This document shows, in pieces, positions 1,288-28,300 of a stretch of DNA of 64,000 nucleotides. Position 1 is the first letter of the stretch. Each line of letters starts with the position of its first letter. This DNA comes from an uncultured delta proteobacterium. Its GTDB lineage: Bacteria > Myxococcota_A > Polyangia > Fen-1088. The notes beneath the pieces are model-generated. The model searched no databases, had not been told where the DNA came from, and saw nothing but the letters and a program-made list of their open reading frames with translations. The stretch is taken from contig CAVTRY010000007.1 of assembly GCA_963737265.1 (NCBI GenBank), forward strand, positions 64,001 through 128,000, read 5' to 3'. The translations under genes were made by a program, and so were the position numbers.

Positions 1288-1420
1288 GTCCTTGAACGTA
1301 GCAGAAAGCCCGCGTAGCATCAGTGTCAGTCGCTAACGCGTGTGCTCTTCCGCCTACCAGGGCCCAGCATACATCGCCGGTCACCTGCCCGCTCACCTCA
1401 CCCATTGCGTGGAGGCTACG

Positions 1421-5686: not shown

Positions 5687-6433
5687 TCAATCGATTTGTG
5701 ACGACGGGGCTGTTGCGGCTGTGGCCACCGTCAAGACGCAGGCTCCCTCTTGCCGCCAGACGATTCGAACGGATTGCTCGAAGGGTTGTCGAAACGTGTG
5801 GAGCGGCGTTTTGATGTACGACTCCGCGGAAAGTTTCACATCCATGGGCAACCAACCCACCGGACAGCCAAAAAACATCTTACCGACCAGGTTTACCACA
5901 ATGGAGCGCGTGTCCACCCGCAAACCCAGGCCCAGCAGCTTGAGGACGGCCTCCTTGGCGCTCCACAGGCGGGCGACAACCAGATCGCGCTCCGCTCCCG
6001 CCTGGTCCGCCATCTCCGCCTCGTCGTCGGCGAAAAACTGCCTGACCAGCGCAAGATCGCGCGACTCGATGGTTTCCACGTCCGCCCCGATGTGAACACT
6101 TGGATCCATCGACGAAGCCGCCATCCCGATGTCGCTGCGATGGGAAATCGAAATGGGATACGGCCATCCGCCCTGCCCTTCGATGAGAACGAAGGGCGCA
6201 CCCGACGGCTGGTTGAGCACGCTAATTGTGTCGTCGCGCAAGGCTGGGTCACGCGCCACTTCGCGCACGAGCTGTTTGGCCGCCGCCCGGCCGAGCAGCC
6301 ATTTCCGTCGCCGCGGCAAGAATGCCAGCCCGGCGAGATTCGCCTCCTCGCGCGGACTCAGCAATCCGGGCCACGCCTGGCCCTGCTCCAGCGACGGGTG
6401 CTCGTGGGCATGAACCAGGACATAGCGAAACAT
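5687..6433 (-). CDS. Sfp-type 4'-phosphopantetheinyl transferase
   Basis: GRAAAK, SGAP, SISH, IGADVE and WSAKEAVLK motifs. Start overlaps the PKS stop at 6433. Confidence 0.9.
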   Translation of the reverse strand: MFRYVLVHAHEHPSLEQGQAWPGLLSPREEANLAGLAFLPRRRKWLLGRAAAKQLVREVARDPALRDDTISVLNQPSGAPFVLIEGQGGWPYPISISHRSDIGMAASSMDPSVHIGADVETIESRDLALVRQFFADDEAEMADQAGAERDLVVARLWSAKEAVLKLLGLGLRVDTRSIVVNLVGKMFFGCPVGWLPMDVKLSAESYIKTPLHTFRQPFEQSVRIVWRQEGACVLTVATAATAPSSQID

Positions 6434-9400
6434 CAGCTGGCCACGTTGCGGAACGGGCGCGCTTCTTCCTCGGGCAGGGTGTTCGGCATGCGCGAGGTGC
6501 GGTAGCCCTCAAGCTCGACGTGGACCCTGCCTTCGCCGTCGCGCACGCGGGCGCTGAACGAAAGTCCGCCCGTGCTCGGATGGGCGGTCACCTCGGCGAC
6601 CAGCGGGCCACCGTTCATCGACGGGTCGCGCACGGTCACGCGATCGACCGCCGCGGGCAAGGCAAGCTGGCCGCTGTGGCCGATTTCCCAGACCCCGGCG
6701 GTCTGGAAGCACAGCTCAATGAGACGCGGCCCCACGACGCTGCCGTGGCTCGGGTTGGTCGTGTCGATCGGCAGATTAGCCGTCATGCAGCCAATCACCT
6801 GATTGGGCCCGGCGCTTTCCACGCGGTCGAGCACCCGGTAGGCCGGGCCGTGGAAGAACACGCGATAGATGTCGTCGCGGCCGATCTCGGGATCGGTGCG
6901 ATGGAAGGCCTGCACGCGTTGATCGTCGAGGGCCGATGGCGCAAGCACGACCACGCCCGAGAAATGAAGTTTCTCTTCGGGCTCGCGGCCGACGATGGTT
7001 TGCACCGACGACAGCGTGGTGAAGACGCGTACGCGGCCGTCGGCCGACAATACCGGCCGGGCGCGCACGATGGCGGCGCGCGGTTCGTGGCGGTAGTACT
7101 TCATGGGCGCGAGGAAGCGCAGATTTTCCAAACCCACGACGTGGTGGCTGGGAACCAGCAGCCACCCGGCTTCCGCGAATGTCTCGATTCCCATCACACC
7201 TGGAAGCACGGGAATCCCGTCGATGGCGTGATCGTAGAGGAAGGGCTCGGCCTTGGGATCGAGCTTCATCTCGGCGCTAAGGCCGTCGTGCAGATGAAAG
7301 CTAACCTGGGTAAAGGGCAAGGGCAGCGACCGGTCTTGTGCGCGTGCTTGCAAGCTGCCCTCGATGTCGAGGCCGCCATCCTTGTCCACGGGATCAAGCA
7401 AGATTCCGAGACGGCGGCCGACCACCGCCTCGCCCGAGTAGCCGGCGAGAAGAGCGTTGCGAATGACCGGCAAGCCCTCGGCTGGGTCGAGCATGTCGAT
7501 TCCGGCGCGCTTCATGATCTCGGGGATGCTTCCGCGCGTGGCCATGCCGATGCCGCCCCACGCGGTCCAGTCGAGGGCGATGCCTTGCGAGCCGGGACGC
7601 GCGGCGGCCCACCACGAGACCGTCTTGCACATGAAGTCGTTGCCAGCGCTGTAGTCGGCTTGGCCGGCGTTACCGAAGCGGCCCGCCACCGACGAGAAGA
7701 CGACAATGGCCTTCACGTCCACGTCGCGCGTGGACGCCATCAGGTTGAACAAACCGTCGGCCTTGACGCGAAAGACCAGATCGAATTCCTCGACCGGCTT
7801 GCGATCGAGCGAGCGACTGCGTTCGAGCCCGGCCGCGTGCAGGATCACGTCAACCTTGCCGCTTTGTTCGCGGATGTTTTCCACCACGGCACGGACGGCG
7901 CTTCCGTCCAGGACGTCGACCTGACGATAGAAAGCGCGGCCGCCCGCCTCTTCGACCGAGCGCAGGGCTTCGAGGATGCCCGCCTGCCGTTCGAGGTCGA
8001 AGAGTTTCTCCTCGACCTGCGCTGGCGTGGCGCGGCCCTTCTCGGCCTTCATCGTCTCATACACCTCGCGCTTGGCACCTTCGCGATCCTTGACCACCTT
8101 TTCCAGCAGGGGCCGTTCGCTCTCGGGCGGCATCTGCCGCGCGTTCGAGCAAATAGAAGGTCCCACGCGAAGCGGCCGCTAGATCACGCACGATGGCCAC
8201 GGTGATGGCGCCCGCTCCGCCGGTGACGGCGAACACCGAGTCGGCATCCAGCTTGAACGGCGCCTTGGCGTCGCTGGGAATGGCCGACAGAAGCTCGACG
8301 GCCACGCTCACGCGCAGGCTGCCCTGATAGCCGATTTCGACCGCGCCGGGATCGCGCTCGGTCTCGTCGAGCAACGCGCGCGCCACGACCTCGCTCGGCA
8401 TGTCTACCGGAAAGTCCACCGCCTTGACCATGGCCTCTGGCCGTTCGCGCTTGGCAGCTTTGACGAAACCAACGACGGCGCCGCCCAGTGGATTGCTCGC
8501 ACCGCCCGGCGCGTAGCCATGATGGCCGCCCATGCGGGTCGCGGCGATGAGGAAGGTGCCCGGATTGGCGAACGTGTCGTACAGGCCGCGCACCGCCCCG
8601 TGCAACAGCAGCACGCGATCGTGGTAGAGCTTGCGGAACTCGACCAGATCGATCTCGGCCAGCGATGGGCACGGATCGAGCGAGGCCAGAAAGTACATAC
8701 CAGCGATCGGGCCTGTGGCCGCCCACTCGCGCAGGGCGTGCTCGATCTCGGCGCGTTCGGGCCGCGCATCGATGCGCAGGACCTGGGCGCCCCGTCGTTC
8801 GAGCTCTTCGCACAGCAGCTTTCCCGCACCTTCATAGTCGGCAACCACGACGACGCGACTGCCCTTGTCCAGGCGCACCGGCGTGGCCTTGCACGCCGCC
8901 AGCGGCGGGCGCAGGACCAAGGTCGGCCGGCGAAGCACGCCGCTTTCGAAGGAATTGGCGGGCGAAACGGCCGGCGCCGCAATCGGCGCGGGCGCCGGTG
9001 CAGCCGCGGGCGTGGCTGCGACCGACGGCGCCGCGGCGGCTCCGGCGACATTCTTCTTCACGAACTCGATCACGTGGCGAAGCGTCGGGTAGTCGCGCAG
9101 CTTCAACTCCTCCTGGCGAGGGATATTGAATTCCTCGCGCACCATCGCGAACACCTCGGCTTGCTTGACCGTATCGACGCCGAGATCGGCCTCCAAATCC
9201 AGGTCCAGCTCCAGCATGTCGCTGGGATAGCCGGTCTTCTCGGCCACCATGCCCAGCACCTTTTCGACGATGGCGTCGCCCACCGTCGCTGTGGTCGTGG
9301 CCGTGGCTGTGGTCGTGGCCGTGGCCGTGGCCGTGGCCGGCCCCGTCGCAGTCGCGAGCCCCAGGCTCTGCTCGACATAGCCAATCACGTGGCGAAGCGT

Positions 9401-12400
9401 CGGATAATCGCGCAGCTTCAGGTTCTCCTGGCGCGGGATCTTGAACTCCTCGCGCACCATCGCGAACACCTCGGCCTGTTTGACCGTGTCCACGCCGAGA
9501 TCGGCTTCCAGATCGAGGTCCAGCTCCAGCATGTCACGCGGATAGCCGGTCTTTTCCGCCACCATGCCCAGCACCTTTTCGACGATGGTGTTGTCAGACG
9601 GCGTGGCGGCGACCGCGGCTGGCGTCGCCGCGGAACTAGCGGCAGGCACCGCCGCCACCACCGCTGGGGTCGGCGAAGTCACCCCGGCGCGAACAACGCC
9701 GCTCTCCTCGACATAGCGAACCACGTGGCGAAGAGTCGGGTAGTCGCGCAGCTTCAGGTTGTCCTGGCGAGGAATGGTGAACGTTTCGCGCACCATCGCG
9801 AACACCTCGGCTTGCTTGACGGTGTCGACGCCCAGGTCGGCTTCTAGATCCAGGTCAAGCTCAAGCATGTCGCGCGGGTATCCGGTCTTTTCCGCGACGA
9901 TGCCTAGCACCTTATCGAGAACATCAGCGCCGGTTGAAAGCACCGCCGCGACGGCAATCGGCGCCGTCGCGATGGGCGCCACCGCAGCAGCGGGCAAGGC
10001 CGGAACCGGCGCACCAGCCAGATCCGGCCGGCCACTTTGTACATAACCAACCACGTGACGCAGCGTCGGGTAGTCGCGCAACTTGAGGTTGTCCTGGCGA
10101 GGAATAGCAAACTCCTCGCGCACCATCGCGAATACCTCGGCCTGCTTGACGGTGTCGATGCCGAGATCCGCTTCGAGGTCGAGGTCCGGATCCAGCATGT
10201 CGCGGGGATACCCGGTCTTCTCGGCCACGATGCCGAGCACTTTGTCGAGGACGCTGCCACCCGCGAGAACAATCGGCGCTGCCGCCGTCAGTGTCGGCGC
10301 GGGCGCCGGAAGGGTCGCGGGCGCCGTTGCGGCCAAAGGCACAGTCTTCGCCACCGGTGTCACGGTGGTAGCCACATCCGCAATCGTCGCGCTTGGCCCC
10401 GTGCCAGGCAGCCATTGCGACTGCGCCGGTTCGCGCGCGGGCTGTCCGGCGTCCTTGATGCGTAGGGTTCTCTTGTGCACTTCCAGGCCGGGCGCGGCGT
10501 AGCCGGACACATCGGCCAACCAACGGTCGTAGGTTGCCTGATCGGCGATACGCTGTTCAACGCCCGGCACGCGCCGAAGCAGCGACATGGCGATCTGCGA
10601 TCCGAAGCCGGCGGCCAGGCGCAGGGCGAACTTCACCGGGTAGTGACCGCCGCGCGACAGATTGAGCGTGCCCAGCTCCGGATCGGGCTCGCGGAAATTG
10701 GGCACAGGCGGCACGATCTGCTTTTCCAGGATCTTGACCGCCACGGCGTCCTCGACGCCGACCCCCATGGGATGACCGGTGAAGCCCTTGGTGTTGGCCA
10801 CGACCAAATCATCGGCCGCGGCGCCGAAGGTCTTACGCAAAGCGAACACCTCGGCCGCCGCGCTGCCGCCGCGCGCGGGCGTGTAGGTTTCGTGCGAGAT
10901 GAAGGCCAGCTCCTTGGCCATGGCTTGGCGATGGAGACCGTGCCGACGCTCAACCGTCGACACGAGCTTCTCCATCACGCCTTCGATGTGCGAGACGTCG
11001 AGGCGCGTGCCGTGAAAGGCGCTGTTGGCGAATTCCGTGCCCAGCACCTCGACCACGCCGCGCATGCCGCGTTCGCGCACGGCATCCTCAGACTCGATGA
11101 CCAGCGCGCAAGCACCCATGCCCATCAACATGCCGTGGCGGCGGCGATCGAACGGCAGAGCGGCGCGCTCGACCACGTTCTCGGTCGTGGCGGCGCCCGT
11201 GGCCAAGAAACCCGCGCCCATCCATTCCAGCAGATTGTCCGAGGTCAAATCGTCCGCGCCAATCACGATCACGCGACGGCAACGTCCCATACGGATCCAG
11301 TCTTCGGCCATCCCCACCGCAACCGTGGTCGACGCGCAAGCCGAGTTGACCTGGGTGTTGGGGCCGCGAATACCGAGCATCTCGGCGAACTGGGCATGAC
11401 CCATGGACAGAACGCGGAACATGAAGCCGCGGTCGAATTGAAAGTCGCTCTTCGTTTCGCGGGCTTCGTAGAAGCGGCGGATTTCGCTCACCAGGTTGTC
11501 GTAGCCGGGAAAGGCCGAGGCGAAGATCACCCCGGTTTCGTCCGCCATGGCGAGCGGCAGGCGCCAGCGATCCGGCAAGTAGCTGCCGGTGGTAGTCCGC
11601 CGATAGTGGCGAACGAGCGGGATGCCGGCGTCGCGCAGAGCCTCGATGCCGGCGCCGATAGCGAGCGCGGTGGTGGTATCGAAGACGTCGCTACGCTCTC
11701 TCGACACGCCGAATTCCTCGACCAAATTGAAGGCGCCCTTGCGGCCCGCCAAGCGAATGACCTCGTCGACCGACTGGATAGGTTCCAGGCTGGGCTCGCC
11801 GACTTCGCGCTTGTGCAGACGGACGATGTTCTTGCCCAGCATGCGCTCACGCAACACCGGCGGTACGGGCTCGATGAAGGACTCGCCGGCCAAAATGCGA
11901 TCCACATTGCTGTCGTCGAAGACGCGGCGGCTTTCCCCCGGCAGGCCCAATCCCGCGCCCGAAATCACGATGGAGCCTCCTGTCCGCGAAGGCTCGGGCG
12001 CTGGTGCTCGACCTCCGCTTCCTTGGTAGAGCGACAAACCCTCGTCGAGAAAACGCGCGAACAAACGTCCCAGGCCCTCGTAGTCCGTCGGGCCGGCGGC
12101 GGCGGATGGTAAGCCGGAAGATGAACCCGAAGATGAACCAATCCGATTCGTGCTCATGGCGATGGAAGCTCCATTCGATTGCGTGGGATTGTCGCTCGGG
12201 GCCGCGTTGCGCGCAGCCGGAGCGGCGGTTTGGATCTCTCGAATCCGGGCCAGCAGTTCTGGCCTGGGAATGCCCGCGGCGTACAGGCAGCACATGGCAT
12301 CGTGGAACGAGCGCACGCCGCCCCGCTTGGGGTGATTGGTGGATAGACAAAGGACGTCGTGCTTGTCCTCAAGCACGTTCTCGGCGAGCGCTTGCAGCGC

Positions 12401-15077
12401 GCGCTTGGGGCCGACTTCGACGAAGATGCGCGCGCCCTCGCGGTAGCAGGTTTCGATGCCCTTGACGAACTGGACCGACGACGCCATCTGGTCCGCCAGG
12501 CGGCGACGGATAAGCTCCATGTCGTTTGTCGGATAGAGCTGTCCGTCGATGTTGCCAACCAGCGGGATGCTGGGCGGATTGAGCTGCATCTCGCAGATGG
12601 TTCGGTAGAGGGCATCCGCGGCGGGCGCAACCACCTTGCTGTGGAAGGCGTGCGACACGGGAATGATCTGCGCGGTCATGCCGCGATTGTTGAAGTAGTC
12701 GACCGCGCGATCCACGGCGTCGCTGGCACCGGCAATCACCGTCTGTTTCTTGCTGTTCATGTTGGCCGGCGTAAGATAGCCGCCGATCTCGGGCAAGCGC
12801 CGCACGATCTCGTCCGTGGGACCCAGCACCGAGGCCATCTTGCCCTTGTCGCCGATGGACACCGAAGCCATGGCGCGAGCACGCGCGCTTACCGCCACCA
12901 GCGCCTCGGAGAAATTGATCATGCGGGCGCAGACGGCGGCCGCCCATTCGCCCAGGCTGTGCCCCATCACCATATCGGGGACGACGCCATGCTTCGCCAG
13001 CAAGCGCATGATGGCGATGTCGGTCGCCACCATGGCGGGCTGGCAGATGGTCGTGTCCTTGAGCGCCTCTTCGGCATCTTCCATGGCTGCCGCGTCGTTC
13101 GCGTCCCGATAGACGTAGCTGGTCAGCGGGCGGCCAAGAACGGGAGCCATCGTCCGATCGGCTTCCGCGAAGGTTTCGCGTACGATGGGATCGGGAACAT
13201 CGGCCAGCATGTTGACGTACTGGGATCCCTGGCCGGGAAAGAGAAAGGCAACCTTGCCCGCCGGGCCCTGGCGAAAATGAATGCCCTTGGTTTGCAGGAT
13301 CCGCCATTTTCTGGCGTCGTTCTTGTCGAGGGCGTTCGAGCGCGCTCTCGCACTTCTTCGCCAGCTCTTCCGCCTTCTCAAAAGCGATGACCAAGCGAGT
13401 GTGGGCGCCCAGAAAATCCGCGCCGGGCGGCGTGCCGTCGGGAACCTTGCCGGCCTGGGCATCGGCCAGCGCTTGGACGAGGCGCGCACGTACCGAGCCA
13501 GCATCAGCGCCACCCACGGCAAGCATGTGGCCGAGAAGCGATGGCCGGTTGTCGGTTCCTCCGGAAACGGCGACCGAGCCTGGAGCCAAGGAGGAACCGC
13601 TGTCATAGGAGGCCGGAACCTGCGCCACTGGCTGCCGTTTGCCGATCATGCCGGGCACGTACTCCTCGACCACGACGTGAAAATTCGTACCACCAAAGCC
13701 GAAAGCCGAGACGCCGCAGCGCCGGGGCGCGAACGACGGTCGCTCCCACGGCCGCGCCTTGGTATTCACTTCGAACGGGATCTTGTCGAAGGGAATGGCC
13801 GGGCTGCGCACGTCGCAGTTGATGGACGGCGGCAGGATCTTGTGGTGGCAGGCAAGCACCGCTTTGAGCAGGCCCGCGGCGCCCGCGGCGCTCTTGAGGT
13901 GGCCGATCTGCGACTTGACCGAACCCAACGCGATTTTGTGCTTGATGGGCGTGCCTTCCGCCAACACGCTGGCGGCGCTCTCCATTTCGGACAGGTCGCC
14001 CACCTGGGTCGACGTCCCGTGGCCTTCGAGCAAGGTCATGGTCGCCGGATCGAGGCCGGCACGACGCCACGCCCGTTGGATGGCCAGGCGCTGTCCAATG
14101 GGATTAGGGGCCGTGATGCCCTTACCGCGACCGTCGCTCGCCCCGCCCACGCCGCGAATCACGGCGTAAATCTTGTCGCCGGCTTTTTCCGCGTCCTCCA
14201 GGCGCTTGCACACGAAGAAGGCACCGCCCTCGCCCATGACGAAGCCATTGGCGCCGGCGGCGTAGGGACGCGAGCCATCCGGCGACAAGGCGCCGATCTT
14301 GGAGAATTTGATGAAGGTGGTGGCACCCATGTTGCGGTCCATGCCGCCCGTCAGCGCCACTTCGAAGTGGTGATCGGCCAGGCTGTCCATGGCCGCCTGC
14401 ACGCCCGCCAAGGCCGACGCGCAGGCCGCGTCGGTGGTGAAATTGGGACCGCGCAGGTTGTAAACCGCGGCCACGCGACCGGCGACGATGTTGGTGAGCT
14501 CGCCCGGCATGGTGTCTTCGTTGGTATCCGGCCACCGTCGGTTGATCTCGGCGGAAAAGTCGGCCACCAGGGCAGCGCGTGCCGACTCGGGCAAGACCTT
14601 GAACGCGGCAGTCGCGCCGATGGCGTGCAGGTATTCGGGAAGCGCCAGACGATGCACGGTCTCATAGTGGCGCTCGCCACCCATGGCGTTGCCCACGATG
14701 ACCGCGGTCGATTCGGTGTCGAGTGGGCGGTCGGGATGGCCGGTGTCGCGCAGGGCTTCGCCTGCACACAGCAGTGCCCACTTTTGCCCTTCGTCCATGG
14801 CCATCGCCACGCGCGGTGGGATCTTAAACTTGGTCGAGTCGAACGAAACGCCGCTGACCCAGCCGCCGATTTTCGAATAGGTCTTGCCCGGCGCCTTGGG
14901 ATCGGGATCGTAGTAATCGGCGGCGCTCCAGCGCGCGGGGCTCACCTCGGTGATCGAATTCCTGCCTTCAAGCACGTTGCGCCAGAAACTCGGCGCATCG
15001 GATGAACCGGGCAAAATCGCGCCCACGCCCACAACTGCAATGGCGCGTTCGGCCGGATCCCGTGTCGAACTACTCAT
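6433..15077 (-). CDS. Iterative type I PKS/Pfa-like synthase KS-AT-KS-ACPx4-KR-DH (~2880 aa), split by two +1 frameshifts (~13335, ~8144)
   Basis: KS1 DAACAS/HGTST/GHLKSAAG; AT GHSLG and VSHAFHS (malonyl type); KS2 NSACAS/HETYT/GHPMG; four ACP repeats DLEADLG(I/V)DTVKQ; KR TGGAGAI and ADYSAGN; DH HAIDGIPVLPG. The three ORFs join in domain order. Confidence 0.9.
9288..9337 (-). repeat. Hexamer-type (GCCACG)n repeat encoding an Ala-Thr inter-ACP linker
   Basis: GTGGCC/GTGGTC/GTGGCT tandem units on + strand, encoding ATATATATTTATATTTAT. Confidence 0.6.
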
Positions 15078-15175
15078 CGATCAACTTCCTCCAACTTCGA
15101 TCCTGGTGACAGAACAAGGCAGTCGCAGCCCGGTTCCATACCTCGGTTTACTTCCTTGGCTAGCACGTGAGACTG

Positions 15176-16840
15176 TCACTGCGGCAACGCCGCATCTTGC
15201 TCGACGATGGCCTTGGCAACTATCTCAAGGTCGGCCATGAGCCCCTTGGCCGAGGCGTGAATGGCGCTCGACTGCAAGGCGCGCTCGAATTCCGCCATCG
15301 CCGCGTCGTCGACGGCATCCATGCCGCGAACCAGACGAACGCCACCGGCCAGGACATCGAGCGCGGTGTCGCGCGCGCAGATCCGCGACATGACCTTCAC
15401 CACGCTGGGGGCGAAAAATGGTGCGTACTTTTCCGGCGCACGACCGGCGGCGTAGCGAGCAAAATTGGCCGCGATTTCGGCGCGCGACATGAGCTCGCCA
15501 AGTTGGAAAAGCACGTGCTGATTGCGAGTGAGCCGGCCGACGCGGCAACGTTCGGTGATTTCGAGCACGGCCCTGACGGCCAGGGCGGCGACGTCGGCGC
15601 CGACCTGACTATCTTCGCGGTGCAAGGCTTCGAGCGATTCGGCCATCTTACGATAGAAGCCGCCGCGCTCTTGCAGGTGGATGCGCCATCGGTCGCGCGA
15701 CACCGTCCACTGCATGATTTCGCTCGTTCCCTCGTAAATGGTGGTGATGCGCACGTCGCGACGGATCTGCTCCACCGCGTATTCCTTGGTGTAGCCGTAG
15801 CCACCCATGGCCTGCACTGCTGCGTCCGCGGCGGCGTTGCCCTCCTCGGTGGCGAACAGCTTCACGATGGCGCCCTCGGTTTGCAGCTCGGGTTCGCCCG
15901 CGTCCAGGCGATGTGCGACTTCCTCGATGTAGGCGCGCGCGGCTTCCAGCTTGACCACGTGAGGAACGATGAGCTTGTTCATGTAGCCCTGCTTTTCAGC
16001 CAGGGGCGATCCCGCCTGCACGCGCTCGCGCGCGTAGCGGATGGCCTTGAGCATGGCCGCCACGCCGCCGCCCAAGCCAAAAGCCGCGACCATCAGGCGC
16101 GTAAATCCAAATACCGACTGCGCGTGGATAAGTCCCTTGCCCTCGACGCCGCCAAGAAGGTTTTCCTTGGGAACGAAGACGTCCTCGAAGACGACCGGCG
16201 AGGTGTTCGACGAACGAATGCCGTGCTTGTTTTCATGTTTGCCTGGAATCAGTCCCGGCGTGCCCTTTTCGACCAGGAAGAACGTTGGTCCTTCGGTAGT
16301 CGCGGCCAAGACCGAATAGAGCTGGGCGTAGCCGCCGTTCGAGATGAACTGCTTGGTGCCGCTTATCTTGTAGCCTTTGAGCTCGCCGTTCTCGATCACG
16401 CGCTCGGCCTTGGTGCGGATGGCCGACAGCTCGCTGCCAGCGAGCGGCTCGGTCACGGCGTAGGCGACAATCAACCCCTCGTCGCCTATGCGCCGAAGCC
16501 AGTGCTTGCGCTGTTCCTCGGTAGAACCCACGACGATGGGATCGGTTCCGAGAAAGATGGCCAAGAAGGCCGTCGCGACACCGAGATCCAAGCGTGCCAT
16601 TTCCTCGGACACGCGGTACACGTCGTAGGCCGAACCGCCGAGCCCGCCGAGATCCTCGGGAATGAAGAGCAAATGTAGGCCAATCTCCGGCCCGAGCAGA
16701 TCCTGGATGAGACCGAGCGGGAACTCATCCTTCTCGTCGAGCTCGAGGCGAACCTTGGCCGGCAGCTTCTGCTTGCCAAACGACCCGAGGGTGTCGAGAA
16801 GCATGTTGAGCGATTCTTTGTCGAGTCCTGCGTTCTTCAT
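15176..16840 (-). CDS. Acyl-CoA dehydrogenase family protein with C-terminal extension
   Basis: AYAVTEPLAGS, GTKQFISNG, KHGIRSS, MGGYGY, IYEGTSEI. Co-oriented about 100 bp upstream of the PKS. Confidence 0.92.
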   Translation of the reverse strand: MKNAGLDKESLNMLLDTLGSFGKQKLPAKVRLELDEKDEFPLGLIQDLLGPEIGLHLLFIPEDLGGLGGSAYDVYRVSEEMARLDLGVATAFLAIFLGTDPIVVGSTEEQRKHWLRRIGDEGLIVAYAVTEPLAGSELSAIRTKAERVIENGELKGYKISGTKQFISNGGYAQLYSVLAATTEGPTFFLVEKGTPGLIPGKHENKHGIRSSNTSPVVFEDVFVPKENLLGGVEGKGLIHAQSVFGFTRLMVAAFGLGGGVAAMLKAIRYARERVQAGSPLAEKQGYMNKLIVPHVVKLEAARAYIEEVAHRLDAGEPELQTEGAIVKLFATEEGNAAADAAVQAMGGYGYTKEYAVEQIRRDVRITTIYEGTSEIMQWTVSRDRWRIHLQERGGFYRKMAESLEALHREDSQVGADVAALAVRAVLEITERCRVGRLTRNQHVLFQLGELMSRAEIAANFARYAAGRAPEKYAPFFAPSVVKVMSRICARDTALDVLAGGVRLVRGMDAVDDAAMAEFERALQSSAIHASAKGLMADLEIVAKAIVEQDAALPQ

Positions 16841-17111
16841 TTCGTGTCTTGTCTCCTGCACGGATCTTCGTCGAAAGGCAATCCCCGCCTGCGCGGCGGA
16901 CGATGCTGGCACAAGCTGGCCTAGAATCAAAACAGGGATCGACGGCGCAATCCGTCGACCCCTGCTTCGCGATACAACTACCTGTAATTATTAGTCACGA
17001 TCTGACGCGTCCGGATTGCAGACTTTGCCCTGGTCTAACCCGGATCCGTGCTGCGCGGGAAACTCCGCGAAATCGAAACACCACGCAGCCCCGTCGACTC
17101 GGCCTGGGCCG

Positions 17112-22394: not shown

Positions 22395-25300
22395 TTACCC
22401 GATGGCCAACCCGAGGTGGCTGCGCAACTCGAAGTACTCTTCCGAGACACTCCACTGCAAGAGATCTCGGATCTTGTCCTTGGGATCGGCGCTGCCCACG
22501 GCAATCGGCTCGGCCAAAATCTGCTGCGCGGCGACCTCGATGTCGTTGCAAAGCAAGAACCCGGCGCGCGTCGACGTGTAGTCGACCGCAATCGCCCACT
22601 TGTGAAGATCCACGTCCGCCTTGCTTTCCAAGAAGCGACGCACGACCTCGGTGAGCTGTTCCAGGTGTTGCGGCGGCAAGAATCGCCGTAGCAGATCCAC
22701 GCGCTCGGCCACGGGCTGCTCCATCTCTCCCTTGACTGGCACCTTGGGTTGAACCAACTTGAGCGCCGCCAAGAAGAAGGCCTTGAGCTCGGAGACCTGC
22801 GGGACGATGCGCGGCCAGCGCATCACGTGATCCGAACGCAAAAGCGTCAGACGCTTGCCGAGCGCATAGGCCAGATCCTTCTCCTGCTTGCCCTGCAAGA
22901 GCGCGGCGCCCACGATCAGCGCCGGGCAAAGCTGTTGCCTGTCGCGCGCGCTGACGAATTCGATTTCGCCGGCCCAATCCTGGCGCAAGTACAGCTCGGG
23001 GCTGCTGACGCCCAAGATTTGGCTGGCGTAGACAAACACGCGGCTGAACATCAATTGGTCGGTGGCCAGATCGCGGCGATCCTTGCGCCGGATGCCGTAG
23101 TCCTTGTGTTCCTGGGCGCGGATGGCGATGACCGTCTGACTGATGTTGGCGAGCACCAGCGAAACGTAGCGATCCTCGTCGCGGTGGAAAATCTGTTTCT
23201 GCCAGTTTTCCTCGGTCAGGCGAGCCTTGACCCGCGCCAGGCCCTTGCCGCGGTACTGCTCGAAGAAGCGCAGCTCCTCGGCGTCGGCCTGCTTGAGATA
23301 GGCCAGCGTCGCGGCCACGCACCACACCTGGTCGTATTTGCCCGACTCGGCGTAAAGACGCCGCAGCGTCTTGAGCGACGGAACCATCTCCTTCGGATCC
23401 TTGGCGCGCGCGATGAGGAATCGGTATTCACGAATCGCCTTGTCGTAGCATTCCGGTCCCTGCACTTGGTACAGCTCGGCCAGGATTTGATGGCGCGAGG
23501 TATTCTCGCCTTCCAGTCGGACGCAAACCTCGAAGGCCTCGGCGGCCTCGCGGTACTGCTTGAGGCGCGAGCGATAGATCTCGCCGAGTCCGTGCCAAAG
23601 CGCGAGCTGCGTCGCCTTCTTCTCGGGCGTGACTTCTTGGCCGAGTCGTTTGATCATTTTGCGGTAGTTGCGCTGCTGGTTGGTCCAGTCCTTCTTGGCC
23701 GTCATGATCTTGTCGATGCGCTCGAACGGCTTGAGGTCGTCCGGACTCTCGTCGAGCGCCTGGTTGAACATCTCGACCGCCTCGTCGGGAGAGTGCAATT
23801 CGGTGTTGGTGATGATGCCGGCGGTTTCGAGGTACTTGGCCTTGGATTTTCCGGTTTCGAGATTGGCGAGCCGCATGAGGATCTCGACTGCCTTCTTCCA
23901 TTGCTTGGTTTCGTGCAGAAGGTCGAGCACGTCGACGAGCAGGTTGCGCGCATCGGGTTTGACCTCGATGGCTTCGAGATAGACCGCGATGGCCTTTTGG
24001 GAATTGGCCAGCTTGTCCTTGTAGATGGAGATAATCTCCTCGTGGAAGCGCAGCTTCTCTTCCACGCTCGCAAGGTGGGACAAAAGCGCACGCTTCTGCC
24101 TAATCACAGCCTCCCAATCGCCGGCCTCGGCGTACACCGCCGCCAGGGCTTCCAGCGTGGGCCGATGACCCGGTTGGATTTCGAGCGCTTTTTCGAACAT
24201 GTTGATGGCCTTCGCGCGCTCGCCCACCTTCATCTTGATGTTGCCGATGCGGTGGAATATCTCGACGATTTGATCGTCGCTCTGCGACTCGCGATGCTGA
24301 ACCATCACGGTCTGGTACAGTTTGAAAGCATCGTCCCACTGCTGGCGGCGGTAGAGCAGATCGGCCCGGTCAACCAGCGTCGGCAAATGGGTCGGATCCA
24401 GCTCGTAAGCGTGGCGGTAACACTTGAGCGCCTTCTCCTGATCGCCCAGCCTGTCAGCCGCTTTGGCCAGCCGGTAGTAAAGGACGTGAAGCTCTTTGTT
24501 GGCGCGCCGGTCGGTCTTGCGCGCCAGCATCTCGAGCACCGGAATGAGCGGGACCCACTCTTCGCGGCGGTAGTAGATCTCGGCCAGCGGCGAGGCGGCT
24601 TCGACGTGCTCGGGATCGAATTCGAGGGTCCGGGCGAAGAGATCCTTGGCCTTCTGCTCGTCGCCGAGCTCGGTCTGGTACAGCTTGCCCGCCTCAAAAA
24701 GCAGTCGAGTCTTTTCGAGGAGGTTCTGCGTGTGGGCCTCGGCCCGCACCATCATCTGAGCCGCCTTGAGCGAGTCGCCTCGGCGTTTGTAGAGGTTGAC
24801 CAGCGACAACATGCTCGGCACGTGGGTGGCGTCGATGCTGAGCGCATCGGACAGCCGTTCCTCGGCCGATTCCGGCATCTGCATGTGCTCGTCGAAGATC
24901 TTGCCCAGCCGGAAGCTCAAGTCGACCTTCTCCTTGGCTTCCACCACATGCACCAACCGCTCCATGATCTCGACCGCGCGATCCCATTGCTCGGTCTGCT
25001 CGTAGATGCGCGAGAGGCCCTTGAGCGCCTCCGTGTGATCGGGATCGAAGGTGAGGATGTCGTTGTATGCCTCGGCGGCGCGATCGGGATCGCGCAGCTC
25101 CTCTTCGAAGAGCTGACCCAAGGCCAGGTAAACCGCCGTGCGCTCCTGCACTTCGGTCTCGACTAGGATGTGGCGACGGTAGATGTCCACCAAGGCATCC
25201 CAATTGCGATCCCCGCGGTACAAGCGTTCAATGTCGCGATAGACGCGCAGTTGATGCTCATCGACTTCCAGCACGTGCTGCAAGCACTCGATGGCCCGAT

Positions 25301-28300
25301 CGGACTTGCCCGGCTGCTGCTCCCACACCTGCGCCATGCGTAAGTACAGGCTCACGCGCTCAGTGTCGGCGGGGGTCACTTCGAGTTGGTGCTCGAGGAC
25401 CTCGAGGTAGGCGTCAGTACGGCCGGCTTTGAGATAGAGCTGTTCGAGTGCCTTGAGCGCCGGCAGATTCTGCGGGTCGACGGTTAGCACCTCGCGGTAC
25501 GCATCCACCGCGCGCTCGTTGTCGCCGAGCCTCGTCTCCCACAGCTCGCCGACCTGCAGGCGCAACTTCACCGCCAGCTCGGTGTCGCTGACGACCTGGG
25601 ACTTCTTGCCCAAAACCTCGGCCAGGCGATCCCACGCCTGCGAGCGGCGATGCAAGCGCTCGAGCGCGTCGATGGCGCGCAGGCAGCGTTCATCGCTGCG
25701 CAAGGCTTGCTCGTACGCCGCCGTGGCCTGCCCAACATCGGCGAGTTGAACTTCAAACGCATCCGCCAAGGCCAGCAGGACGGCAACCTTACGCTCGGGA
25801 TCTTGCTCGATCTCGGCGTGCTTGGACAGGACGCCGACCAGCTCTTTCCACTGACCAAGCTTGCGGAAAAAATCGGCCAGCGCCGCCATGGCCCCGACGT
25901 GTTCCGAATCCAGGGTCTGCGCCTTCTTGGCCGCCGCGATGGCGTATTCGGTGTGATCCAAGGCCGAGTCGTACCAGCGGGCGATCTTGACCCACAGGTC
26001 GGCGGCCTGCTTGGGATCGTCCATTCCCTGCGCAACCTGGGTGTACTCGGTGAGCAGGTCGTTCCACTTGCTGGTCACCGTGGCCAGGCGCTCCAGCTCC
26101 TTGGCGACGTAGTCGTTCGAGTAGTCCTCGCGGAAGGCGGCCTGCAAGGTCACGAAGGCCGAGTCGCGATCGTCCATCTGCTCTTCGTAGACGGTGGCGA
26201 TGTCGCAAAGCAGGTGGATGCGTTCCGCCGGACCGTCGACATAGTCGATGCGCGCCAGCAGCAGCTCCACCAACCGCGGCCACACCTTGCGCTGGCGATA
26301 GAGCTCCTCCAGGGCTGTCGACGCTGGGGCGTTGGATGGATCGAGCTCGAGCACGCGCTCGTACGCCTCGGCCGCAGCGGCACCGTCGCCGATCTTGTCG
26401 GCCCAGACGGACGCGGTCTGCATGAGCACGTCGACCTTCTCGGCCGGCGAGGCGAGCGCCGCCACCCGGCGCTCCAGAACCTCCACGCACTCTTCCCAAC
26501 GTCCCTCTTGCGTGAACAGCGTCTCGAGAGCGGCCAGGGCGCGGAAATCCGTCGCATCGAGCTGCAGGACCTGGCGCCAAGCCTCCACGGCCGCGTCGAT
26601 GCGCATGAGGGTCGTCCCCTCGAGCTCGCCCAACTGCGCGTAGAGCTCCTTGATCTCGGCGTCCCCGAGTGCACGCGCGCCCACCGAGATCGTCCGGCGC
26701 AGCGTATCGGACAGCTCTTCCCAAGCGCCCGCGCTGCGATAGTTGTCCGCAATGGCCCGCAAAGCTTCCACGTCGCCGGGATCGATCTCGACGACCTTCT
26801 GCCAGCACTCGAGCGCATTGCGCTCGCGCCCTAGCTTCTCGCCCCACACCCGGCCCAAGCGCTTGTACACGGGAATGCGCGCTTCGGGCTCTTCCGTCGC
26901 GCGGATCTGACTGTCGAGAACCTCGGTGAGCTCGCGCCACTCGTCGGCTTGTTCGTGCAGGTCGGCCAGCGCCGAGAGCGCCACCGGATCCGCTCCGCGC
27001 AAATCGAGCACGCGCCGCCAGAGCTCGACTGCGTGTTCGCGTTGCCCGAGCACGTCCGAGGTGATCTTGGCCATGCGCGCGTAGCAATCGGACAAGGCTT
27101 GGTCGCCCGGCGCGATGTCGAGCATCTTTTCGTAGACGCCGTAGAGATCCTCCCAGCGCTCGGCGCGGAAATACAGACGCTCGAGCGCCTCAAGCGCCTC
27201 GGGCGAGCGCGATTCTTGTTCGAGCACGGCAAGGTAGCTCGCCACCGCGGCATCGGGATCGTCGATGACGTCGGCCAGCACCCGGCCAAGGCGCAGATGC
27301 ATTGCGACCAGTTGGCTGCCGTCTTCGCTGGTGGCGATACGCCGGCGAAGCACGTTGGCGAGCTTTTCGAAGTCGCCTTGCTTGTCGTAGACCCGATCCA
27401 AGAAAGCCAGGGCGGCGACGTCCTGGCCATCGAAACTCAATATCTGCCCGAGAATCTCCTCGGCCCGCGACAAGTCGCCAAGCTCGGTTTCGAAAACGGT
27501 GGCCAGACGCATGAGCACGTCCTTGCGCACTTCCGCATCGCTCGCCTTTCCAGCCGCCTCGGCCATGGTCGAGACGTACGTCTCCCACTGGTGGGTCGCA
27601 CGGGCCAGGCGCAACACCTCGTCGAGGGCCTGCTCGGAGGAGGGCGCTTCCACAACGGCGCGCGCCCACCAATCGAGGGCCGAGATCTGATCCACCAGTT
27701 TGCTTTCGGCGATGTCGGCCAGGCGGCGCAGGATGCGCTGGCGCTCCTCGGGTTGGGTCTCGGAAACCAGCTCCACCTGGTAGACACGCACGAGCTTTTC
27801 CCACTCTTCGCCGACGCGATAGAGCGGCTCGAGAACTTGGGCGATCTCGTGCTGCATGGAACCGCTCGCCATCAACCGTTCGAGGTTGGCGCGCGTGTCC
27901 TCGTGCTGCGGCGAAATCGTGAGAATTTCCTGATAGGCCTCGACGGCCTTCGGCAGATCGCCAAGCGCGACCTCGAGAATCTGCGCGAGGCGGTAGCTGA
28001 GCGAGACGATTTGCTCCTCGGTGTCGGCGAGGCGAATCTCGCGGCGAACGATGTCCGCCAACTCCTGCCAGCGCTCGGCCACGGTGTAGAGGCGGTCGAG
28101 GGCGACCAACCCGTCCTTGCGATCGGGCTCGGCCTCGGCCACGCGTTTGAAGGTCGCGATGGCCTTGTCGACCTCGCGCGTTTCTTCCTCGTACACGCGC
28201 GCTAGGCGCATGAGCATTTCGACCTGGAGGCGGCTATCGAGCACGCGATCGATCTCGGCTTCGATGGCGGCGGCCAGCTCGGGCCACCGACCGCTGGCCT

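What the first reader, a model, noticed from the sequence alone, without database searches (positions are those of the whole stretch)
5687..16840. ACAD + KS-AT-KS-ACP4-KR-DH + PPTase: an unusual ER-less lipid synthase system
Seen: one ~2880-aa protein with two KS domains, both keeping Cys-His-His (DAAC/HGT/GH and NSAC/HET/GH), a malonyl-type AT between them, four ACPs, KR and a PKS-type DH. No ER, TE, chain-length factor or PfaD gene is in the locus, and an acyl-CoA dehydrogenase lies directly upstream. Known: PfaA is KS-AT-ACPn-KR-DH and relies on PfaD for enoyl reduction. Inference: the flavoprotein ACAD may act as trans enoyl reductase or desaturase, and the two KSs may split chain-length ranges or perform head-to-head condensation. 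That would make an alternative fatty-acid or secondary-lipid pathway.
Basis: partly seen in the sequence, partly recalled or inferred. Interest (0 to 1): 0.8.

Follow-up and report, generated by a model that had tools for sequence, protein, structure and literature searches.

The report
Lipid synthase with flavoprotein partner, threonine carriers
This is a soil bacterium's copy of a widespread but uncharacterised lipid-making enzyme whose carrier domains carry threonine where every textbook carrier has serine, and whose missing reduction step is probably done by the flavoprotein gene next to it.

Summary
However, the "~2880-aa protein" is not one open frame here. It is split over three frames by two single-base insertions at about 13335 and 8144, which are most likely assembly errors.

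The operon is acyl-CoA dehydrogenase (ACAD), then KS-AT-KS-ACP4-KR-DH, then PPTase. It belongs to the "Type R" secondary-lipid synthase family catalogued in 2011, whose product is unknown; earlier agents of this scan reached the same family on other genomes.

New here:
- **ACAD linkage.** The ACAD lies directly upstream in 71 of 73 assessable related loci from several phyla, sometimes with ETF genes and often with an acyl-CoA carboxylase.
- **Fused reductase in a sister branch.** A sister branch lacks the ACAD and instead carries a FabK/PfaD-type enoyl reductase fused at the same end. This supports the ACAD as the trans enoyl reductase.
- **Threonine carriers.** The carrier domains have Thr, not Ser, at the phosphopantetheine site: 231 of 232 in related loci, and 341 Thr against 11 Ser in a second library.
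- **Second KS.** It keeps Cys-His-His in 80 of 80 loci, so it is not a chain-length factor.

FAS II genes persist, so this is a secondary pathway. Head-to-head condensation is unsupported.

The parts
15176..16840 (-). Acyl-CoA dehydrogenase homologue (554 aa counted from the Met at 16840), VLCAD-type with a roughly 150-aa C-terminal helical domain. Proposed trans enoyl reductase.
   Evidence: Pfam finds ACAD N, M and C domains. The start was chosen by comparison with orthologues. The catalytic Glu in IYEGTSEI is invariant in 25 orthologues. The model has pLDDT 88.8. The best fold matches are the two-domain ACADs 2z1q, 3owa and human VLCAD 7s7g, TM about 0.8. The best NCBIfam hit is acryloyl-CoA reductase AcrC at 244.7 bits, far below its 640-bit cut-off.
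6433..15077 (-). Megasynthase KS-AT-KS-ACP4-KR-DH. It reads in three frames in this assembly (12369..15077, 8057..13606, 6433..8166).
   Evidence: Orthologues have a single frame of 2849-2965 aa. The intact orthologue L011 scores 973.1 bits on TIGR02813 PfaA, below the 1010.1 cut-off.
13656..15047 (-). KS1, a PfaA-type ketosynthase with DAACAS / HGTST / KSQIGH.
   Evidence: Pfam finds ketoacyl-synt N and C. TIGR02813 positions 7-468 match at 403.9 bits. The triad motifs are present in 70 of 70 KS1 hits with more than 85% cover.
13330..13340 (-). Frame break 1: one extra base relative to orthologues, in the context GCGCTCGAACGCC.
   Evidence: Alignment with 6 orthologues. Contigs of runs X2 and X3 (relatives) lack one base at 13335; X1 does not cover the site.
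12353..13246 (-). Acyltransferase with GHSLGE and HAFH (malonyl-type; the motif's meaning is recalled).
   Evidence: Pfam Acyl_transf_1. TIGR00128 FabD at 189.7 bits. Sequence.
10577..11974 (-). KS2, a FabF-like second ketosynthase with an N-terminal insertion. Cys-His-His is kept (NSACAS / SHET / KGFTGH). The 2011 catalogue labelled this domain 'CLF'.
   Evidence: The best solved relatives are FabF enzymes, E 5.5e-26. The triad is present in 80 of 80 loci.
9059..10246 (-). Four tandem carrier domains (10040-10246, 9710-9916, 9374-9580, 9059-9265). Each reads DLG(I/V)DTVKQAE, with Thr at the phosphopantetheine position.
   Evidence: The Thr aligns with the Ser of solved ACPs. The other 14 PP-binding hits in this genome all have Ser.
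7555..8929 (-). Ketoreductase, cut by frame break 2.
   Evidence: Pfam KR and adh_short in ORF 6433..8166. The Rossmann start GGAGAITVAIV lies in ORF 8057..13606.
8140..8148 (-). Frame break 2: one extra base relative to orthologues, in the context TTGCTCGAACGCG.
   Evidence: Alignment with 5 orthologues. An X1 contig with 0 other differences lacks one base at 8144, as do X2 and X3.
6478..7290 (-). PKS-type dehydratase (HxxxGxxxxP present). It is the last domain of the synthase.
   Evidence: Pfam PKS_DH_N and PS-DH. Sequence.
5687..6433 (-). Sfp-type 4'-phosphopantetheinyl transferase (248 aa). Its start overlaps the synthase stop.
   Evidence: Pfam ACPS. GADVE and WSAKEAVLK align with the Sfp catalytic motifs. 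ISISH fits the hShxH motif that Shulse & Allen give for Types M-T. Conserved in 16 orthologues. Fused to the synthase C-terminus in 33 of 150 representatives.

Best explanation
The locus is a three-gene operon of the 'Type R' secondary-lipid synthase family. It consists of a VLCAD-type acyl-CoA-dehydrogenase homologue, an iterative PfaA-like megasynthase (KS-AT-KS-ACP4-KR-DH) and a dedicated Sfp-type PPTase.

Shown:
- the domain set
- intact catalytic motifs in both KS domains
- Thr at the cofactor site of all four carriers
- near-universal ACAD linkage in relatives
- probable intactness of the gene in nature

Inferred mechanism:
1. The PPTase loads phosphopantetheine onto the Thr of the carrier domains.
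2. The AT loads malonyl units.
3. The two active KS domains share the elongation cycles, perhaps by chain length.
4. KR and DH take each beta-keto group to a trans-2-enoyl thioester.
5. The ACAD, working in the reductive direction on electrons delivered by ETF, reduces the enoyl intermediate in trans. It fills the role that PfaD or FabK-type domains fill elsewhere.

The product would be a largely saturated long acyl chain made alongside FAS II. Its identity and its release step are unknown.
For: Family membership:
- The domain order and the downstream PPTase match the Type R description.
- A Roseiflexus MAG locus, L032, has the same layout with 63% KS2 identity.

ACAD coupling:
- 71 of 73 assessable loci out of 80 have the ACAD directly upstream on the same strand. 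By the record titles these span Myxococcota, Chloroflexota, Acidobacteriota, Actinomycetota and others.

A reductase is needed, and the ACAD sits where one is:
- Among 80 representatives that include KS1, 18 have a roughly 700-aa N-terminal extension alignable over at least 500 aa with NMO-bearing N-termini.
- Pfam calls the NMO (FabK/PfaD-type) domain in 3 of the 5 long representatives scanned.
- Three of three metagenome loci of that fused form have no ACAD hit within the flanks.
- Of the two ACAD-less loci among the 80, L094 has exactly this fused NMO domain. None of the other 79 does.

Redox partners:
- EtfB and EtfA lie directly upstream of the ACAD in 7 loci.
- A 712-aa Fe-S/CCG protein lies upstream of those in 5 loci.
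- The best NCBIfam hit of the ACAD (AcrC) and strong though not always top hits of the L090 ETF subunits (AcrA is the top hit for EtfA, AcrB the second for EtfB) are the three subunits of clostridial acryloyl-CoA reductase, a reductive ACAD/ETF enzyme. All score well below their cut-offs.
- This genome has one EtfA gene.

Fatty-acid-like logic:
- 40 of 80 loci carry acyl-CoA carboxylase genes next to the synthase.

Thr as the cofactor site:
- 231 of 232 carrier domains in the 80 loci have Thr.
- In 150 independent representatives the count is 341 Thr against 11 Ser. One protein, P0104, mixes Ser and Thr carriers in an identical sequence context.
- The PPTase is fused to the synthase in 33 of 150 representatives.
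Against: - No experiment bears on any step.
- ACADs normally oxidise. The ETF plus Fe-S/CCG arrangement is also what an oxidative ACAD would use.
- ETF genes are adjacent in only 7 of the 73 loci and not in this window.
- In three Chloroflexota loci the ETF genes lie next to a second, 403-aa ACAD and may belong to that gene instead.
- No ACAD-synthase fusion was found in 150 representatives.
- This genome has an orphan PfaD-family reductase 150 kb away that could serve instead.
- FabF and FabZ are present, so a FAS II reductase acting in trans is not excluded.
- E. coli AcpP S36T is reported as unable to receive the cofactor (PMC3340395, passage read). Thr loading would therefore need a PPTase with different tolerance.
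- The fused-ER comparison rests on 3 related metagenome loci plus one MAG locus.
- The gene is broken in this assembly, and the break at 13335 is contradicted only by relatives, not by same-strain reads.
Confidence: 0.6

Rival explanations
1. The ACAD works in its usual oxidative direction as an acyl-thioester desaturase. It would put a 2,3-double bond into a finished or starter chain and pass the electrons to ETF and on to the quinone pool.
For: The ACAD has a VLCAD-type fold and the normal catalytic Glu. ETF and an Fe-S/CCG protein sit beside it in some loci, which is the arrangement expected for oxidative ACADs. An acyl-ACP dehydrogenase route to unsaturated fatty acids exists in Helicobacter as FabX; I saw only the abstract start of PMC8626469 in the listing.
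Against: The synthase's own KR and DH already produce a 2-enoyl intermediate in every cycle. With no reductase there is no saturated substrate to desaturate. The sister branch replaces the ACAD with a reductase-type domain, not a desaturase.
Confidence: 0.15
2. Enoyl reduction is done by a reductase encoded elsewhere: the orphan PfaD-family protein at G000:C7:229083-230867, or a FAS II reductase. The ACAD would have an accessory or regulatory role.
For: A PfaD-family protein scoring 620 bits (cut-off 449) with NMO and FabD-helical-insert domains lies on the same contig with no PKS beside it. FAS II genes are present.
Against: A PfaD family match is absent in 3 of 4 other carriers tested (G041, G042, G044). 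G043 has only a 39.7-bit match. The own PfaD protein finds nothing in the 80 loci. The ACAD is adjacent in 71 of 73 loci.
Confidence: 0.1
3. There is no enoyl reduction at all. The synthase makes a conjugated polyene, as the enediyne-type KS-AT-ACP-KR-DH-PPTase synthases do (that architecture is recalled, not tested). The ACAD would act on something else.
For: No ER domain is in the protein. A C-terminal PPTase fusion occurs in 33 of 150 relatives. The ACAD-less variant L080 sits beside two aromatic amino-acid lyases, which looks like an aryl-polyene type of cluster.
Against: Tandem carriers, a linked acetyl-CoA-carboxylase type enzyme in 40 of 80 loci, and a reductase fused in the sister branch all point to bulk reduced lipid.
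Confidence: 0.08
4. The gene is a true pseudogene in this organism and the operon is dead.
For: There are two frame breaks in the assembled sequence.
Against: An otherwise identical contig lacks the base at 8144. A third +1 insertion at the same heptamer breaks an unrelated gene. Genome-wide there is an excess of +1 phase changes at GCTCGA[AG], 92 against 54 -1 changes, compared with 172 against 205 at control motifs. No other damage is seen and all catalytic motifs are kept.
Confidence: 0.05

Closest known systems
'Type R' secondary lipid synthase cluster (Shulse & Allen 2011, PLoS One 6:e20146; PMC3098273, passages read). Named members: Koribacter, Solibacter, Elusimicrobium, Roseiflexus.
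   Same: One pfaA homologue with KS-MAT-'CLF'-ACP(3-6)-KR followed by a PPTase gene. An ACC gene is noted in Koribacter. Distribution across phyla is patchy. The product is unknown.
   Different: The paper calls the second KS a chain-length factor, but here it keeps Cys-His-His in 80 of 80 loci. Its main text has no occurrence of 'dehydrogenase', so the upstream ACAD goes unmentioned. I saw no remark on the Thr carrier site in the passages I read. I did not read its supplements.
Bacterial PUFA synthase PfaABCDE (PfaA = KS-MAT-ACPn-KR; PfaD = FabK-like ER), as described in PMC3098273.
   Same: Iterative type I chassis, tandem carriers, a dedicated PPTase and a trans-acting enoyl reductase. KS1 and the whole protein score best on the PfaA model.
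   Different: There are no PfaB, PfaC or PfaD genes and no FabA-type dehydratase/isomerase. A second KS lies inside the PfaA-like protein. An ACAD stands in place of PfaD. The carriers have Thr. The intact orthologue stays under the PfaA cut-off (973 against 1010 bits).
Reductive ACAD/ETF enzymes: clostridial butyryl-CoA dehydrogenase/EtfAB, acryloyl-CoA reductase AcrABC, and the Ascaris 2-methyl-branched enoyl-CoA reductase. The biochemistry is recalled, not tested here.
   Same: An ACAD-fold flavoprotein that takes electrons from ETF to reduce an enoyl thioester. AcrC is the best NCBIfam hit of the ACAD, AcrA is the best hit of the L090 EtfA, and AcrB is the second-best hit of the L090 EtfB.
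   Different: All scores are far below the family cut-offs. The ACAD here has the long VLCAD-type form. The substrate would be carrier-bound rather than CoA-bound. No activity is known.
Sister branch of the same family with a fused N-terminal NMO (FabK/PfaD-type) domain (P0024, P0058, P0130; loci L094, L109-L111).
   Same: KS-AT-KS-(Thr-ACP)n-KR-DH chassis, often with a fused PPTase. KS2 is 37-47% identical.
   Different: The reductase is in cis and no ACAD is nearby. Some members have an extra KS-like domain after KS1.

Membership tests
Type R secondary lipid synthase cluster (Shulse & Allen 2011) | Single pfaA homologue with order KS-MAT-(second KS, called 'CLF')-ACP(3-6)-KR | tested here: met
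   Pfam domain order with 4 carriers. The window copy is split over 3 frames, while orthologues are single ORFs.
Type R secondary lipid synthase cluster (Shulse & Allen 2011) | PPTase gene directly downstream, carrying the hShxH (P1b') motif | tested here: met
   The ACPS-domain gene 5687-6433 overlaps the synthase stop. ISISH is readable in the translation. The motif definition is taken from the paper.
Type R secondary lipid synthase cluster (Shulse & Allen 2011) | Sequence relationship to the named members | tested here: inconclusive
   A Roseiflexus sp. MAG locus (L032) has the same layout with 63% KS2 identity. The type strains named in the paper were not compared directly.
Canonical PUFA synthase subunit PfaA (TIGR02813) | Score over the curated cut-off, and partner genes pfaB, pfaC and pfaD in the cluster | tested here: not met
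   The intact orthologue L011 scores 973.1 against a cut-off of 1010.1. No PfaB, PfaC or PfaD homologue is in the window.
Chain-length factor (KS-beta) | Loss of the active-site cysteine | tested here: not met
   Cys, His and His are kept in the window and in 80 of 80 related loci.
Acyl-CoA dehydrogenase superfamily, long (VLCAD-type) form | Three ACAD domains, the catalytic Glu, and an extra C-terminal helical domain | tested here: met
   Pfam domains. The YEG Glu is invariant in 25 sequences. The fold matches 2z1q, 3owa and 7s7g over the full length. The direction of catalysis cannot be tested with these tools.
Phosphopantetheine-binding carrier domain (PF00550) | Serine at the cofactor attachment position | tested here: not met
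   Thr is at that position in 4 of 4 domains here and 231 of 232 in relatives. The fold family itself is matched.
Sfp-type PPTase | Mg-binding and catalytic motifs (GxDxE and WxxKEA/SxxK) | tested here: met
   GADVE and WSAKEAVLK align with Sfp 1qr0, though the overall E-value is only 0.006. The motifs are conserved in 16 orthologues.

The most novel reading that the evidence does not exclude
The Type R family would be a self-contained, horizontally mobile fatty-acid synthase with two features not described for any synthase.

1. **A new reductase class.** A VLCAD-type acyl-CoA-dehydrogenase homologue runs backwards on ETF electrons as the enoyl reductase. That would be a new class of FAS/PKS enoyl reductase beside the FabI/L/V, FabK/PfaD and MDR types.
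2. **A new cofactor linkage.** The phosphopantetheine arm is carried on threonine and installed by the co-encoded, sometimes fused, PPTase. This linkage would make the carriers invisible to the host's own PPTases.
Probability: 0.4. Interest if true: 0.85.

Novelty: new variant of a known kind. Interest (0 to 1): 0.7.

Why it matters
- **Scale of the unknown.** The family is large: 630 representative clusters at E <= 1e-30 in a 1.8-billion-protein library. By the record titles its members come from Chloroflexota, Acidobacteriota, Actinomycetota and Myxococcota, many from soil and wastewater MAGs. Its lipid product is still unknown.
- **A fourth kind of enoyl reductase.** If the ACAD is the reductase, fatty-acid and polyketide enzymology gains a new reductase type and a direct link between lipid synthesis and the ETF/quinone pool.
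- **Annotation and engineering.** If Thr carries the cofactor, the rule 'carrier domain = conserved Ser' used in annotation pipelines and in active-site mutagenesis is not universal. The Thr-carrier/PPTase pair could also serve as an orthogonal labelling or pathway-insulation tool.
- **Assembly quality.** Three single-base insertions at one heptamer show how long-read MAGs can make intact megasynthases look like pseudogenes.

Tried and rejected
- **Primary-FAS reading rejected.** FabF is over its cut-off in all 5 genomes tested, including this one and 4 Chloroflexota carriers. FabH is over its cut-off in 3 of those 5. FabZ is over its cut-off in this genome and in the Roseiflexus MAG.
- **Systematic error at every CTCGACGC rejected.** That 8-mer is not depleted in the genome; it occurs 1020 times.
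- **ACAD-synthase fusion sought, not found.** 0 of 150 representatives.
- **Own PfaD against the 150 representatives and the 80 loci.** No hit in either.
- **Complex prediction of ACAD (with FAD) and one carrier domain.** The verdict was 'no answer', score 0.01 against a mark of 0.32. This is no evidence either way.
- **Expression.** No RNA holder was listed for the stretch.
  - No paper in the held open-access library links an ACAD to a PUFA-like synthase or follows up Type R.
  - No paper there reports phosphopantetheine on threonine.
  - Two of the searches were too loose to be useful.
  - Subscription journals are not covered.
- **KS phylogeny against named PfaA/PfaC references.** Not done, because no reference sequences were at hand.
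- **Earlier notes of this scan.** Nothing near this place. Nothing on Thr carriers.
Full report
**What is in the window**

The window is G000:C7:64001-128000 of a 6.55-Mb, 25-contig, 65% GC genome. Its nearest relatives in public records are titled as 'delta proteobacterium', Myxococcales or Polyangia MAGs.

On the minus strand between 16930 and 5687 there are five long ORFs. Pfam assigns them as follows:

| ORF | Pfam assignment |
|---|---|
| 15176..16930 | ACAD N, M and C domains |
| 12369..15077 | KS N and C |
| 8057..13606 | AT, a partial KS match and four PP-binding domains |
| 6433..8166 | KR plus PKS-type DH |
| 5687..6433 | ACPS-type PPTase |

A DUF481 outer-membrane protein gene follows. 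Comparison with orthologue N-termini puts the true ACAD start at the Met at 16840, giving 554 aa. No ER, TE, PfaB, PfaC or PfaD gene lies nearby. The neighbours are trehalose-related genes, RNase Y and giant TPR proteins.

**The synthase is broken in this assembly, probably by error**

- The KS1 ORF, the AT-to-KR ORF and the KR-DH ORF lie in three different frames.
- Aligned with five or six orthologues, the window has one extra base at each junction, near 13335 and 8144.
- Orthologues in the same genus (G004, G008, G009, G010) and in another family (G037) read through as single frames of 2849-2965 aa.
- Public run X1 holds a 396-nt contig with no other difference that lacks one base at 8144. 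It is one contig at depth 2.7.
- Runs X2 and X3, which hold relatives, lack one base at both 8144 and 13335. X1 does not cover 13335.
- A third single-base insertion splits the large TPR gene near 29709 against 5 of 5 same-genus relatives.
- All three insertions follow GCTCGAA on the minus strand.
- A genome-wide GC3-phase test shows more +1 than -1 phase changes at GCTCGA[AG], 92 against 54. Six control heptamers give 172 against 205.
- The 8-mer CTCGACGC is not depleted (1020 copies), so only a small share of such sites is affected.
- 13 of 52 complete relatives are also split over frames.

I read the breaks as context-specific assembly errors. A true pseudogene is unlikely but not excluded for 13335.

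**What family it is**

The KS2 domain alone finds at least 588 relatives in one-genome-per-species contigs. I examined the best 80.

My hand tally of the record titles is approximate:
- about 40 Chloroflexota
- 14 Actinomycetota, including isolates titled Paractinoplanes durhamensis and Mycobacterium sp.
- 11 Acidobacteriota
- 12 Myxococcota or 'delta proteobacterium'
- single Gemmatimonadales, Rhodothermales, Acidithiobacillales and Heimdallarchaeota-labelled MAGs

In the 1.84-billion-protein representative library, 630 clusters reach E <= 1e-30.

The distribution around this genome is patchy:
- 12 of 12 genomes of the same genus have it.
- 0 of 12 other genera of the family have it; their best E-values are only FabF-level, 1e-19 to 1e-24.
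- 5 of 16 other genomes of the class have it.

Shulse & Allen 2011 (PMC3098273, passages read) describe exactly this layout as 'Type R'. It is one pfaA homologue, KS-MAT-CLF-ACP(3-6)-KR, plus a downstream PPTase, in Koribacter, Solibacter, Elusimicrobium and Roseiflexus. The product is uncharacterised, and an ACC gene is noted in Koribacter.

Two earlier agents of this scan reached the same family on other genomes. I found no follow-up in the open library.

**The second KS is not a chain-length factor**

- Cys, His and His are present in 80 of 80 KS2 domains and 70 of 70 KS1 domains.
- KS1 is PfaA-like (TIGR02813, 403.9 bits).
- KS2 is closest to FabF (TIGR03150, 127.8 bits; best solved relatives are FabF enzymes, E 5.5e-26) and carries an N-terminal insertion.
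- Two active elongating KS domains recall the two KS domains of PUFA synthases. A division of labour by chain length is an inference.
- Nothing supports head-to-head condensation.

**The ACAD is a conserved partner**

- It lies directly upstream on the same strand in 71 of 73 assessable loci. Seven of the 80 end too early to judge. The two misses are L080 and L094.
- Its sequence, including the roughly 150-aa C-terminal extension, is 52-90% identical across 25 orthologues, and the catalytic Glu is invariant.
- The model (pLDDT 88.8) matches the long, VLCAD-type ACADs 2z1q, 3owa and 7s7g over the full length.
- Paralogues in this genome are at most 37.5% identical, and none has the C-terminal domain.

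**Evidence that the ACAD is the missing enoyl reductase**

The strongest argument is displacement.
- Among the 150 best representatives, 80 include KS1. Of these, 45 start at KS1 as here, and 27 have an N-terminal extension of more than 300 aa.
- 18 of the 27 align over at least 500 aa with N-termini in which Pfam finds an NMO (FabK/PfaD-type) domain.
- Pfam calls that domain in P0130, P0024 and P0058, but not in P0148 or P0081 at E <= 1e-6.
- Three of three metagenome loci of this fused form have no ACAD hit in 6-kb flanks.
- Among the 80 loci, the ACAD-less L094 has this fused NMO domain and none of the other 79 does.
- The other ACAD-less locus, L080, has a different order (KS-AT-ACP-KS) and two aromatic amino-acid lyase genes upstream. 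It looks like a different, unreduced product.

Supporting context:
- EtfB and EtfA lie directly upstream of the ACAD in 7 loci, and an Fe-S/CCG protein lies before those in 5.
- The best NCBIfam hit of the ACAD is AcrC. Among the hits of the L090 ETF subunits, AcrA is the top hit for EtfA and AcrB is second for EtfB. These are the three subunits of clostridial acryloyl-CoA reductase, but all scores are well below the cut-offs.
- Acyl-CoA carboxylase genes flank the synthase in 40 of 80 loci. They are separate CT, BC and BCCP genes in Chloroflexota, and a single-chain BC-BCCP-central-CT protein of about 1850 aa in Acidobacteriota and Actinomycetota.
- A related multidomain ACC in Saccharopolyspora supplies malonyl-CoA for fatty-acid synthesis (PMC6491548; title and abstract start from the listing, passages).

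Precedents for ACADs that run reductively on ETF are recalled, not tested: Bcd/EtfAB, AcrABC and the Ascaris enoyl-CoA reductase.

Against this reading:
- ACADs usually oxidise.
- ETF is adjacent in few loci, and in three of them it may belong to a second, 403-aa ACAD.
- No ACAD-synthase fusion exists in the 150 representatives.
- This genome has an orphan PfaD-family reductase at C7:229083-230867. However, that family is missing in 3 of 4 other carriers tested.

**Threonine at the cofactor site**

- All four carrier domains read DLG(I/V)DTVKQAE.
- In alignments with solved ACPs the Thr falls on the Ser of DSL/DSI.
- In this genome the other 14 PP-binding hits all have Ser.
- In the 80 loci, 231 of 232 carrier domains have Thr. 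The exception is a degenerate VGADPV in L076. These loci include isolate genomes, so this is not a sequencing artefact.
- In the independent 150 representatives, the motif count is 341 Thr against 11 Ser. 23 fragments have no motif.
- The Ser cases have the same surrounding sequence, and one protein, P0104, mixes Ser, Thr and Ser carriers. That is what one expects if Thr is a working attachment residue.
- The PPTase is Sfp-like with its catalytic motifs. It lies downstream in 41 of 53 assessable loci at my threshold and is fused to the synthase in 33 of 150 representatives.
- E. coli AcpP S36T is described as unable to receive the cofactor (PMC3340395, passage read).
- Three searches found no report of phosphopantetheine on Thr in the held library. 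Subscription literature was not searchable.

**Relation to primary fatty-acid synthesis**

- FabF (614.8 bits) and FabZ (172.3 bits) are over their cut-offs in this genome. The FabH model found nothing.
- Four Chloroflexota carriers also have FabF, and three have FabH over its cut-off.
- The system therefore coexists with FAS II and is best called a secondary-lipid pathway.
- The product, its chain length and its release are unknown. No TE is conserved, although L094 has an alpha/beta hydrolase after the synthase.

**Verdict**

It is wrong that the layout is unseen.

The locus is a new member of a catalogued, uncharacterised family. At family level two features appear undescribed: the ACAD/ETF partner standing where others have a fused reductase, and the threonine carriers. 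These make it worth experimental follow-up.

Noticed in passing
window 9059-10246 (minus), and L020-L099, P0001-P0150: Carrier domains of the whole family carry Thr instead of Ser at the phosphopantetheine site: 4 of 4 here, 231 of 232 in the related loci, and 341 Thr against 11 Ser in the representatives. A few members mix Ser and Thr.
   Followed up: yes
window ~29709 (also ~13335 and ~8144): A third single-base insertion, against 5 of 5 relatives, splits a giant TPR protein gene into 22395..30035 and 29566..31992. All three insertions follow GCTCGAA on the minus strand, which suggests a context-specific assembly error.
   Followed up: partly
G000:C7:229083-230867 (outside the window, same contig): An orphan PfaD-family enoyl reductase (595 aa, 620 bits, NMO plus FabD helical insert). 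It has no PKS or KS gene beside it; its neighbours are an MFS transporter, Obg GTPase and a BadF/BcrA-type activase.
   Followed up: partly
window 1-3682; L089 3-5318: Trehalose-related genes lie next to the operon: a GH15/trehalase-like gene and a 780-aa GT20 OtsA-like gene here, and a trehalose-phosphatase-GH65 fusion directly upstream of the ACAD in a Mycobacterium sp. locus. This may be chance.
   Followed up: no
L090 1200-21500 (also L076, L098): An Acidobacteriota locus holds a tight seven-gene array: Fe-S/CCG protein, EtfB, EtfA, ACAD, synthase, single-chain carboxylase (split in L090) and PPTase.
   Followed up: partly
L094 (MAG titled Heimdallarchaeota): This contig carries the fused-reductase form of the synthase (3362 aa) with carboxyltransferase and biotin carboxylase genes, an alpha/beta hydrolase and a B12-binding-domain protein. 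Whether the contig is truly archaeal was not checked.
   Followed up: no
L080 2518-5636: A variant synthase (KS-AT-ACP-KS...) without an ACAD sits behind two tandem aromatic amino-acid lyase genes, which hints at an aryl-primed polyene product.
   Followed up: no
G000:C15:46882-52351: A separate small cluster in this genome holds an ACAD (28% identical to the one here), an 86-aa ACP with Ser, and two adjacent FabF-like KS genes.
   Followed up: no
G000 whole genome: The FabH model TIGR00747 finds no match in this 99.5%-complete genome, although FabF and FabZ are present.
   Followed up: no
window 10148: One X1 contig (depth 4.2) has an in-frame CGC insertion after 10148, in the linker/carrier region. 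This is a possible strain variant.
   Followed up: no
window 22395-44112: A run of very large TPR-repeat proteins (about 3200 aa if the break is read through, plus 1284+617 aa and others) and an FHA-domain protein fills 20 kb next to RNase Y.
   Followed up: no
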